Assembly (NCBI GenBank): GCA_000002445.1
Contig: CH464491.1
Span: 3,904,001 to 3,968,000, forward strand
Length of the DNA: 64,000 bases
Direction: 5' to 3'
Origin: Trypanosoma brucei
Lineage: Eukaryota
Part shown: positions 41,526 through 42,571 of the stretch, piece after piece
Numbering within the stretch: position 1 is the stretch's first letter
Layout: each line of letters begins with the position of its first letter
Translations under genes and position numbers: made by a program
Notes under the pieces: generated by a model
Databases searched by the model: none
Seen by the model: the letters and a program-made list of their open reading frames with translations, nothing else
What the model was told of the DNA's origin: nothing

Positions 41526-41737
41526 GAGTCCATGTAAAGCCGCAGTTGTAGAAAGAAGGAGGGCATATGAACTCGAAACATCATCAACAAAACGCACACA
41601 AGCGAATACGACAAAACAATGGCAAAGAGCAATTCAAAGATACGTACGCAAACATGGTGCTGCAACCGTACGAACAAAAAGTAAAGTAGTCACGAACAAG
41701 GTTTGATTAATGAAGGGAAGAAACAAGAAAGATTCAA

Positions 41738-41830
41738 GACTTCAGCTAATAACATAGTATAGTTATTCCATCACAAATTTGTCGGATTGAAGGGCTAACT
41801 TCAAGAATAACAATGATAACATCATATCTT
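41738..41830 (-). ncRNA. Candidate C/D box snoRNA (copy 1)
   Basis: Minus-strand reading: aagatATGATGTtatcattgttattcttgaagttagcccttcaatCCGAcaaatttgTGATGGaataactatactatgttattagCTGAag. This gives a C box (AUGAUGU), a conserved 21-nt guide-like block ending in a D'-like CCGA, a C' box (UGAUGG) and a D box (CUGA), ~84 nt from C to D. It is intergenic and in the same orientation as the transcription unit, as trypanosome snoRNAs are. Confidence 0.45.
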
Positions 41831-42059
41831 ACTTGACAAAGTACATGGAGTATCATCTCCGCTACCTCTATCACACGGTGCAGCTACGCGGCAAGCACAC
41901 CCTGTTTACACAGGCACGTTGAACAGGGGCCAAGAGGGAGTGTTGGGCCACCGACAGAATGTAGGGGAAACAGTAGAATAAACGCAATAGCAGAGCTGGT
42001 CGAGAGGGTGAAGTATGTGAGCAAACCAGTTTCAAATACTTAAAGAAAGATACGGAAAG

Positions 42060-42150
42060 AATCTCAGAATCAAATATAAACGGTTATTCCATCACGAAAC
42101 TCTCGGATTGAAGGGCTAACTTCAAAAGATCACTAATATCATCACACGGC
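42060..42150 (-). ncRNA. Candidate C/D box snoRNA (copy 2, paralogue of copy 1)
   Basis: Minus-strand reading: gccgtGTGATGAtattagtgatcttttgaagttagcccttcaatCCGAgagtttcgTGATGGaataaccgtttatatttgattCTGAga. It has a perfect C box (GUGAUGA), the same conserved 21-nt block, a C' box UGAUGG and a D box CUGA, ~82 nt from C to D. The boxes and guide are conserved while the spacers diverged. Confidence 0.5.
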
Positions 42151-42571
42151 ACCGCTTCTCTTTTTGTACACACTGGTAGCCCATTGCAGGGGTGAATCAA
42201 CATGCATCGGGGGAGGGGCTCCTACGGACGGCTATTCAAACATATGCTTTCCTTCCAACTAATAGATGGGAAATCAAAGGGGACCACACACATTTTTTTT
42301 CAAATGCACATACGTTTAGACAATGAAAGGAACGAAAAGTAAACAGGGTCATTCGAAGTAGCTTGCAATAACCAATAATATTTACTAATTGTCGCAACAG
42401 AAAGTGAGGCACGCGCACCATGGAACGAAAATCGAGCCATGTTTACACTACTCTCTATGCCCATCTATGGAAAACTTTTTGTGTGTGTTCTTCGAAAAAT
42501 AAACGAAGGGACCGTTACAATGTGTAAAACACTGACCGAATGAAAAAGGGTGCATGTGTATCTGATAATTA

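What the first reader, a model, noticed from the sequence alone, without database searches (positions are those of the whole stretch)
41700..42200. Pair of diverged C/D-box snoRNA-like elements ~320 nt apart in an intergenic region
Two ~90-nt elements (plus 41738-41830 and 42060-42150) share, on the minus strand, a C box (AUGAUGU / GUGAUGA), an identical 21-nt block 'ttgaagttagcccttcaatccga' ending in a D'-like CCGA, a C' box UGAUGG plus 'aataac', and a terminal CUGA D box. The spacers between boxes have diverged. That pattern is selection on the boxes and guide of a functional C/D snoRNA, not a recent duplication of neutral DNA. Orientation matches the transcription unit, and trypanosome snoRNAs are processed from such transcripts, often in reiterated clusters. 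The 322-nt offset suggests a repeat unit that could hold a further (H/ACA-like) snoRNA between them. No ORF explains this conservation.
Basis: seen in the sequence. Interest (0 to 1): 0.6.

Follow-up and report, generated by a model that had tools for sequence, protein, structure and literature searches.

The report
Known trypanosome snoRNA cluster TB11Cs4'
The two repeated elements are real small nucleolar RNA genes of Trypanosoma brucei that guide a ribose methylation of the large ribosomal RNA. Together with a third guide RNA gene lying between them, they match a cluster already described in the literature (TB11Cs4'), so the finding is correct but ordinary.

Summary

The window is T. brucei TREU927 chromosome 11. 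On the minus strand, in the roughly 1 kb spacer between two minus-strand genes, lie two box C/D snoRNA genes (42145..42064 and 41825..41742). Each has C, D', C' and D boxes and an identical 23-nt block.

The same gene sits at the syntenic position in T. vivax, T. conorhini and T. theileri. It also occurs in a snoRNA cluster on a metagenome contig. Only the boxes and a 17-18 nt guide are invariant across these sequences.

Twelve guide nucleotides pair perfectly with T. brucei LSU-beta rRNA U643-A654. A646 lies opposite the 5th nucleotide upstream of D'. A646 is an experimentally mapped, NOP1-dependent 2'-O-methyladenosine that the literature assigns to snoRNA TB11Cs4'C1.

Between the two copies (41920..41853) lies a conserved single-hairpin H/ACA-like RNA with an AGA box. 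Its pocket fits pseudouridine 1074 of LSU-beta, which the literature assigns to TB11Cs4'H1.

The locus is absent from Rfam. The invariant GAAG at the 5' end of the guide block is not explained by this target.

The parts
42064..42145 (-). Box C/D snoRNA gene, copy A (82 nt from C box to D box). C GUGAUGA 42145..42139; invariant block GAAGUUAGCCCUUCAAU 42123..42107; D' CCGA 42106..42103; C' UGAUGG 42094..42089; D CUGA 42067..42064.
42108..42119 (-). Copy A guide nucleotides UUAGCCCUUCAA. They pair with LSU-beta rRNA U643-A654 and place A646 opposite the 5th nt upstream of D'.
41853..41920 (-). H/ACA-like (AGA-box) single-hairpin snoRNA gene lying between the two C/D copies. 5' pocket strand GCCUGUGUAA 41915..41906; 3' pocket strand GAUAGAGGUA 41872..41863; AGA box 41858..41856. 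The pocket fits pseudouridine 1074 of LSU-beta.
41742..41825 (-). Box C/D snoRNA gene, copy B (84 nt). C AUGAUGU 41825..41819 (last base deviates from the consensus); invariant block 41802..41786; D' CCGA 41785..41782; C' UGAUGG 41773..41768; D CUGA 41745..41742. This copy directly follows the H/ACA-like gene, as the C/D gene does in the other Trypanosoma species.
41787..41798 (-). Copy B guide nucleotides UUAGCCCUUCAA, with the same pairing to LSU-beta 643-654.

Best explanation
The region is a small snoRNA gene cluster of Trypanosoma brucei chromosome 11, most likely the published locus TB11Cs4'. It holds two diverged copies of one box C/D snoRNA (TB11Cs4'C1) and one H/ACA-like snoRNA (TB11Cs4'H1).

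The genes lie in the sense orientation inside an RNA polymerase II polycistronic unit and would be cut out of the spacer transcript. That step is inferred from what is known of trypanosomatid snoRNA biogenesis and was not tested here.

In the C/D RNP, the 12 nt UUAGCCCUUCAA upstream of the D' box (CCGA) pair with LSU-beta rRNA U643-A654. Fibrillarin (NOP1) then methylates the 2'-OH of A646, the residue opposite the 5th nucleotide upstream of D'. In the H/ACA-like RNP, the pocket pairs with UAUC (1070-1073) and UUACAC(G) (1076-1082). U1074-G1075 is left unpaired, 14 nt from the AGA box, for Cbf5 to convert U1074 to pseudouridine.

Shown here: the gene anatomy, the conservation pattern, the complementarity, and the positional rules. 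Taken from the literature: that Am646 and pseudouridine 1074 exist, that Am646 depends on NOP1, and the snoRNA names. Inferred: that both C/D copies are expressed and active.
For: Organism and context: three flanking ORFs are exact matches to T. brucei TREU927 chromosome 11 proteins EAN80451-3, all on the minus strand.

Anatomy and non-chance repetition.

Pattern of selection: the two copies align only across the snoRNA body. At the syntenic spacer of T. vivax (1 copy), T. conorhini (at least 6 tandem copies) and T. theileri (2 copies), and in a C/D cluster on metagenome contig L040, the invariant parts are the C box core, GAAGTTAGCCCTTCAATC, the GA of D', and the C' core. The D box CTGA is present in every copy but is misaligned for L040. 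Spacers and flanks vary.

Target of the C/D guide: the supplement of PMC10662448 lists T. brucei LSU-beta nucleotide by nucleotide..GGACU(Psi644)G(Am646)AGGGCUAAGCGG(Gm659)G.., with Am646 seen by LC-MS and assigned to TB11Cs4'C1. PMC9283944 Table 2 shows the LSUb_646 methylation score falling from 0.67 to 0.15 on NOP1 silencing. The guide gives 12 consecutive Watson-Crick pairs with 643-654, with A646 at position 5 from D', in all six sequences tested.

H/ACA-like element:
- It is conserved immediately upstream of the C/D gene in all four Trypanosoma species.
- The hairpin is supported, with 90.8% of cells paired and 4 pairs showing compensatory change; versions with the 3' partners slid reach only 21-55%.
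- The pocket fits U1074 with 4 + 6-7 bp, and the distance to the AGA box is 14 nt.
- Pseudouridine 1074 is assigned in the same supplement to TB11Cs4'H1.

Cross-validation: two independent guide-target fits point to the same published locus name on the same chromosome.
Against: - The published sequences and coordinates of TB11Cs4'C1 and TB11Cs4'H1 could not be read (Liang 2005, Eliaz 2015 and Rajan 2020 are not held; the Michaeli 2012 supplement is not held). The name is therefore assigned by function and chromosome, not by sequence identity.
- No expression data were available here, so one of the two C/D copies could be silent.
- Copy B has a non-consensus C box (AUGAUGU).
- Neither copy has a terminal stem.
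- The lower stem of the H/ACA-like hairpin is only 3 bp.
- The 5' GAAG of the invariant block does not pair with rRNA 655-658 (GCGG). The known target therefore does not explain all of the conservation.
- No Rfam family matches.
Confidence: 0.92

Rival explanations
1. Only one C/D copy is a working gene and the other is a decaying duplicate. Candidates for the pseudogene are copy B, which has the deviant C box AUGAUGU, and copy A, which has lost its H/ACA partner and the ancestral CAUUGUU block.
For: The non-guide parts of the copies differ strongly. Copy B's C box deviates at its last base. Each copy has lost a different block that is conserved in other species: CAUUGUUC is kept only in B, and AAC-CGUU only in A. 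The only two substitutions among T. brucei subspecies that fall inside the snoRNA bodies are both in copy B (41765 and 41741).
Against: Both copies keep all four boxes and the 23-nt block without a single change, although their flanks have diverged beyond alignment. That pattern is not expected of a pseudogene of that age. The subspecies comparison has no statistical power, with about 12 differences in 1049 nt.
Confidence: 0.2
2. The elements are the Trypanosoma orthologue of Leishmania LM32Cs1C1. That snoRNA guides Am479 of SSU rRNA and acts as a chaperone on H68. On this reading they are not TB11Cs4'C1.
For: The locus is syntenic with Leishmania chromosome 32 (record LR812652.1). LM32Cs1C1 is a chromosome 32 C/D snoRNA with an A target and a second interaction domain 17 nt upstream of D'. 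A conserved block sits at a similar place here.
Against: - The guide pairs perfectly with LSU-beta 643-654, around a mapped Am assigned to a chromosome 11 snoRNA.
- The syntenic spacer of Leptomonas pyrrhocoris holds no C/D element.
- The GC-rich homologue L040 sits in a multi-snoRNA cluster, whereas LM32Cs1C1 is described as a single-copy gene.
- No LM32Cs1C1 sequence was available to compare.
Confidence: 0.03
3. The elements are a dispersed repeat or UTR element, or a recent neutral duplication, that resembles a snoRNA only by chance.
For: None beyond the fact that the region lies in a spacer that may be part of a 3' UTR.
Against: - There are only two copies in 64 kb, with none expected by chance.
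- The flanks are unalignable while the boxes and guide are intact.
- The element is conserved at the syntenic site across the genus.
- The guide-target fit obeys the +5 rule.
Confidence: 0.01

Closest known systems
T. brucei snoRNA locus TB11Cs4' (TB11Cs4'C1 and TB11Cs4'H1; Michaeli laboratory nomenclature)
   Same: It is on chromosome 11 and has the same composition, one C/D type plus one H/ACA-like RNA. The C/D guide fits Am646 of LSU-beta and the H/ACA pocket fits pseudouridine 1074 of LSU-beta. These are exactly the two modifications the literature assigns to C1 and H1 of this locus.
   Different: Nothing was found to differ. Sequence identity with the published RNAs could not be checked, and the accessible papers do not say that the C/D gene is present as two diverged copies.
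Canonical eukaryotic box C/D 2'-O-methylation guide snoRNAs (for example the trypanosome TBR snoRNAs, or yeast snR/U-series guides)
   Same: The box order is C - guide - D' - C' - D. The size is 82-84 nt. The guide is 12 bp and ends one nucleotide from D', and the target lies at the 5th position.
   Different: There is no terminal stem. D' is CCGA (CGGA in T. vivax, CUGA in L040). C' is UGAUGG. Only the D' guide is conserved, and the sequence upstream of the D box is free to vary.
Trypanosomatid single-hairpin H/ACA-like (AGA-box) snoRNAs
   Same: It is a single hairpin of about 68 nt with an AGA box near the 3' end. It has a bipartite pocket, and the distance from the pocket to the box is 14 nt.
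   Different: The lower stem is very short (3 bp). No Rfam TB*H* family matches it, even at E up to 10.
Leishmania LM32Cs1C1
   Same: It is a C/D snoRNA on the syntenic chromosome, with an A target and an accessory rRNA-binding block upstream of the Nm guide.
   Different: Its target is in a different rRNA (SSU Am479). There is no evidence of sequence relationship.

Membership tests
Box C/D snoRNA (methylation guide) | C box RUGAUGA near the 5' end and D box CUGA near the 3' end | tested here: met
   Copy A has GUGAUGA and CUGA. Copy B has AUGAUGU (one deviation) and CUGA. All orthologues have RUGAUGA and CUGA.
Box C/D snoRNA (methylation guide) | Internal D' and C' boxes in the order C - D' - C' - D | tested here: met
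   D' is CCGA, CGGA or CUGA. C' is UGAUGG or UGACGA. These boxes sit at aligned positions in all eight sequences.
Box C/D snoRNA (methylation guide) | At least 10 nt of guide upstream of D or D' complementary to a stable RNA, with a known Nm opposite the 5th nucleotide | tested here: met
   There are 12 Watson-Crick pairs with LSU-beta 643-654, and Am646 is at position 5.
Box C/D snoRNA (methylation guide) | Terminal 5'/3' stem that brings the C and D boxes together | tested here: not met
   The flanks of the C and D boxes are not complementary in any species. From general knowledge, terminal stems are short or absent in some C/D snoRNAs, so I treat this as a usual feature rather than a strictly defining one.
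Box C/D snoRNA (methylation guide) | Expressed as a stable small RNA bound by fibrillarin/NOP58 | not testable with these tools
   Indirect evidence only. Am646 falls from 0.67 to 0.15 on NOP1 silencing (PMC9283944 Table 2).
TB11Cs4'C1 (named T. brucei snoRNA) | Encoded on chromosome 11 and guides Am646 of LSU-beta | tested here: met
TB11Cs4'C1 (named T. brucei snoRNA) | Sequence and coordinates identical to the published RNA | not testable with these tools
   The papers or supplements that carry the sequences are not held. Full-text searches for the sequence found nothing.
Trypanosomatid H/ACA-like snoRNA; TB11Cs4'H1 | Single hairpin with an internal pocket, and an AGA box near the 3' end about 14-15 nt from the pocket top | tested here: met
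   The hairpin is supported by covariation. The AGA box is 14 nt from the first nucleotide of the 3' pocket strand. The true 3' end is not known.
Trypanosomatid H/ACA-like snoRNA; TB11Cs4'H1 | Pocket strands complementary to the rRNA on both sides of an unpaired U-N at a mapped pseudouridine | tested here: met
   There are 4 bp 5' and 6-7 bp 3' of U1074-G1075 of LSU-beta. Pseudouridine 1074 is assigned to TB11Cs4'H1.
Rfam snoRNA families | Covariance-model score at or above the gathering threshold | tested here: not met
   There were no hits at gathering thresholds in the window or in the orthologous loci. The only hits were weak chance-level matches to the plant families snoR117, snoR38 and snoR26.

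The most novel reading that the evidence does not exclude
The guide block is invariant over 17-18 nt, but only 12 nt pair with LSU-beta 643-654. The 5' GAAG(U) is unexplained, as are two further blocks conserved in other Trypanosoma species: CAUUGUUC upstream of the guide and AAC-CGUU after C'. In T. brucei these two blocks are split between the copies, with B keeping the first and A the second. They could be accessory rRNA-binding elements. That would mean extra base pairing, or a chaperone role like the H68 contact reported for Leishmania LM32Cs1C1. On this reading the two T. brucei copies have sub-functionalised.
Probability: 0.15. Interest if true: 0.35.

Novelty: already known. Interest (0 to 1): 0.1.

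Why it matters
The result shows that reading raw sequence can correctly pick out a snoRNA cluster, including its guide, its orientation and a hidden third gene. For trypanosome biology it adds little. Am646, pseudouridine 1074 and their guides are already catalogued.

Three small additions come out of this work:
- The C/D gene exists as two diverged copies in T. brucei.
- The [H/ACA-like + C/D] unit is conserved at one syntenic site across the genus Trypanosoma, with copy number from 1 to at least 6.
- The family is missing from Rfam.

Tried and rejected
- Rfam. Gathering-threshold searches of the window and of the orthologous loci found nothing. Permissive searches gave only chance-level plant C/D hits.
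- Literature by sequence. Full-text searches for the guide and its complement found no paper. Supplements of five papers did not contain the sequences, and three further papers have no supplement held. Liang 2005, Liang 2007, Eliaz 2015 and Rajan 2020 are not held.
- Target by exact 17-mer. Scanning metagenome contigs gave 72 hits and bacterial/archaeal genomes gave 31. All appear to be chance matches except the snoRNA homologue on L040. We now know why: only 12 nt pair, so the 17-mer does not exist in the rRNA.
- E. coli rRNA. Comparing the predicted target with E. coli rRNA was not significant; 443 of 500 shuffles scored at least as well.
- H88 placement from memory. I placed the target in helix H88 of the LSU from my memory of yeast and E. 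coli rRNA. This was wrong. The published T. brucei sequence puts it 13 nt 5' of Gm659, in GCGG(Gm)GAAAGAAGACC. A recalled 18S sequence was also of no use.
- LM32Cs1C1 orthology was considered and rejected (see the rival explanations).
- Wider synteny. A profile search with the 1076-aa protein returned only the same four proteins. Through HSP60.1 I reached L. donovani (the locus ends 369 nt upstream of the NF-Y-like gene), T. cruzi marinkellei (contig too short) and Leptomonas (no C/D element in the syntenic spacer).
- A second H/ACA-like copy. Looking upstream of copy A and downstream of copy B found only insignificant 12-15 nt matches.
- TB11Cs6H1. I tested whether the H/ACA-like RNA could be TB11Cs6H1, which guides pseudouridine 530 in H69. 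By my own hand pairing against the H69 sequence as I recall it, the pocket does not fit that site.
- Viral contigs hold no eukaryotic LSU fragment with the motif I searched for.

Full report
**Where we are.** Three ORFs around the finding are exact matches to T. brucei brucei TREU927 chromosome 11 proteins. These are a 476-aa cation-efflux-like protein (EAN80451), a 132-aa histone-fold/NF-Y-like protein (EAN80452) and a 1076-aa hypothetical protein (EAN80453). All are on the minus strand. The finding lies in the roughly 1 kb spacer between the stop of the 1076-aa gene (42572) and the start of the 132-aa gene (about 41522). It is therefore in the sense orientation of the transcription unit.

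**The observation.**
- A 43-nt direct repeat at 91% identity, with spacing 321, is reported by the repeat finder.
- The exact shared block TTGAAGTTAGCCCTTCAATCCGA is 23 nt. It occurs twice and only twice in the 64 kb window with up to 3 mismatches allowed, against none in 100 shuffles.
- Box coordinates were checked by script.
  - Copy A: C 42145..42139, D' 42106..42103, C' 42094..42089, D 42067..42064.
  - Copy B: C 41825..41819, D' 41785..41782, C' 41773..41768, D 41745..41742.
- A local alignment of the two 320-nt units aligns only the snoRNA body, from the C box to a few bases past the D box. Everything else has diverged beyond recognition.

**Comparative evidence.** Homologues of the 1076-aa protein gave the syntenic loci of T. 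vivax, T. conorhini and T. theileri.
- In each species the same element lies on the coding strand in the same spacer. T. vivax has one copy, T. conorhini has at least six tandem copies with a period of about 259 nt, and T. theileri has two.
- A metagenome scan for the reverse complement of the guide gave 72 hits. All but one look like chance matches.
- The exception is contig L040. It is a GC-rich cluster of at least five C/D-like genes that looks trypanosomatid. Its first member carries the same guide with a canonical D' box, CUGA.
- In the eight-sequence alignment the invariant columns are the C box core, C24 of the upstream spacer, GAAGTTAGCCCTTCAATC, the GA of D' and the C' core. The D box is CTGA in every sequence, although it is misaligned for L040. 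The spacers, the sequence upstream of the D box and the flanks all vary.
- This is the pattern of a single-guide C/D snoRNA.
- The syntenic spacer of Leptomonas pyrrhocoris has no such element. The L040 homologue also sits in a different kind of cluster. The genomic position is therefore specific to Trypanosoma, while the RNA itself is more widely distributed.
- Among T. b. brucei, T. b. gambiense and T. equiperdum the spacer differs at about 12 positions. None falls in copy A or the H/ACA-like element, and two fall in non-guide parts of copy B. This comparison has no statistical power.

**A third gene.** Pairwise BLAST of the spacers revealed a second conserved block. It lies between the two T. 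brucei copies and immediately upstream of the C/D gene in every other species.
- It folds into a single hairpin and ends in GA(C/G)G(A/G)AGA followed by a few bases.
- With the pocket left open, 90.8% of cells are paired and four pairs show compensatory changes. Versions with the 3' partners slid by 1-3 columns reach only 21-55%.
- T. brucei has one copy, at 41920..41853. No second copy was found in the spacer or elsewhere in the window.

**Targets.** T. brucei rRNA could not be fetched with the sequence tools, but the literature supplied it.
- PMC9283944 Table 2 lists the Nm sites of T. brucei rRNA with their guides. The chromosome 11 guides with A targets include LSUb_646, guided by TB11Cs4'C1. 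Its methylation score falls from 0.67 to 0.15 on NOP1 silencing.
- The supplement of PMC10662448 gives LSU-beta nucleotide by nucleotide. Residues 637-670 read ACGGACU(Psi)G(Am646)AGGGCUAAGCGG(Gm659)GAAAGAAGACC. LC-MS fragments (Am)AG and G(Am)AGGGC were observed, and the site is assigned to TB11Cs4'C1.
- The guide UUAGCCCUUCAA forms 12 consecutive Watson-Crick pairs with U643-A654. A646 lies opposite the 5th nucleotide upstream of D'. This holds for both T. brucei copies and for all orthologues.
- The same supplement lists pseudouridine 1074 of LSU-beta, in the context CAUAUC-Psi-G-Psi-UACACG, as guided by TB11Cs4'H1.
- The H/ACA-like pocket pairs GAUA with UAUC (1070-1073) and GUGUAA, plus one more base, with UUACAC(G) (1076-1082). 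U1074-G1075 is left unpaired, 14 nt from the AGA box.
- The pocket base opposite G1082 is U in T. brucei and T. theileri and C in T. vivax and T. conorhini. Both bases keep the pair.
- Two independent guide-target fits therefore converge on one published locus name on the right chromosome, and its composition (C1 plus H1) is what the window shows.

**What it is and how it works.** It is a snoRNA cluster embedded in a polycistronic unit. The C/D RNA directs NOP1/fibrillarin to methylate A646. By my own knowledge of rRNA, that site lies 13 nt 5' of the conserved GGGGAAAGAAGACCC stretch at the entry to domain V. The H/ACA-like RNA directs Cbf5 to U1074. Processing from the spacer transcript and the activity of both C/D copies are inferred, not shown.

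**What remains unexplained.**
- The invariant block extends four to five nucleotides (GAAGU) beyond the duplex. rRNA 655-658 is GCGG and cannot pair with it.
- GAAG can pair with CUUC inside the guide, so an internal hairpin is possible.
- Two further blocks are conserved in the other Trypanosoma species and are split between the T. brucei copies. CAUUGUUC is kept in B, and AAC-CGUU in A.
- This could mean accessory pairing and sub-functionalisation, or it could be plain decay of redundant parts.

**Novelty.** The kind, the function and almost certainly this very locus are known. It is not in Rfam. The published sequence could not be compared directly, which is the one gap in the identification.

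**Verdict.** The finding is real and was correctly interpreted, but it is already described. Interest is low.

Noticed in passing
L002:8157-10115 (T. conorhini); L003:8265-9443 (T. theileri); L001:8166-9196 (T. vivax): The [H/ACA-like + C/D] unit varies in copy number across the genus. T. conorhini has at least 6 tandem units with a period of about 259 nt and assembly gaps, T. theileri has 2 and T. vivax has 1. T. brucei has 2 C/D genes but only 1 H/ACA-like gene.
   Followed up: partly
L040:1-1289 (minus strand; metagenome contig WBZP01175267.1): This GC-rich contig looks like a trypanosomatid snoRNA cluster with at least five C/D-like genes. The first is the homologue of the window snoRNA, with a canonical D' box (CUGA). 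By my recollection of rRNA, others carry guides that look complementary to conserved LSU sequences such as ACAGGGAUAACUG and UUUUACCCUAC. No Rfam family matches the contig.
   Followed up: partly
window 42123..42120 and 41802..41799 (minus strand); also the blocks CAUUGUU at 41814..41808 and AACCGUU around 42085..42079: The 5' GAAG of the invariant guide block does not pair with LSU-beta 655-658, yet it is invariant in every species. It can pair with CUUC inside the guide. Two other blocks conserved in the genus are each kept by only one of the two T. brucei copies.
   Followed up: partly
L006:2028-3642 (Leptomonas pyrrhocoris): The spacer upstream of the NF-Y-like gene holds no C/D element. 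The upstream neighbour is a gene for a DNA_pol_A_exo1-domain protein rather than the 1076-aa gene. Synteny therefore breaks at exactly this point outside Trypanosoma.
   Followed up: partly
window 41765 and 41741 (copy B); 41832 and 41929 (just outside the genes): These are single-base differences between TREU927 and T. b. gambiense or T. equiperdum. At 41765 the other two subspecies have C, which gives GGAAC as in the other Trypanosoma species. TREU927 has T.
   Followed up: yes
L032, L039, L050 (metagenome contigs): The 17-mer ATTGAAGGGCTAACTTC also occurs next to GAGAGGAAAGTCCGGAC, which looks like the 5' part of a bacterial RNase P RNA. This is a chance match of no relevance to the finding.
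   Followed up: no
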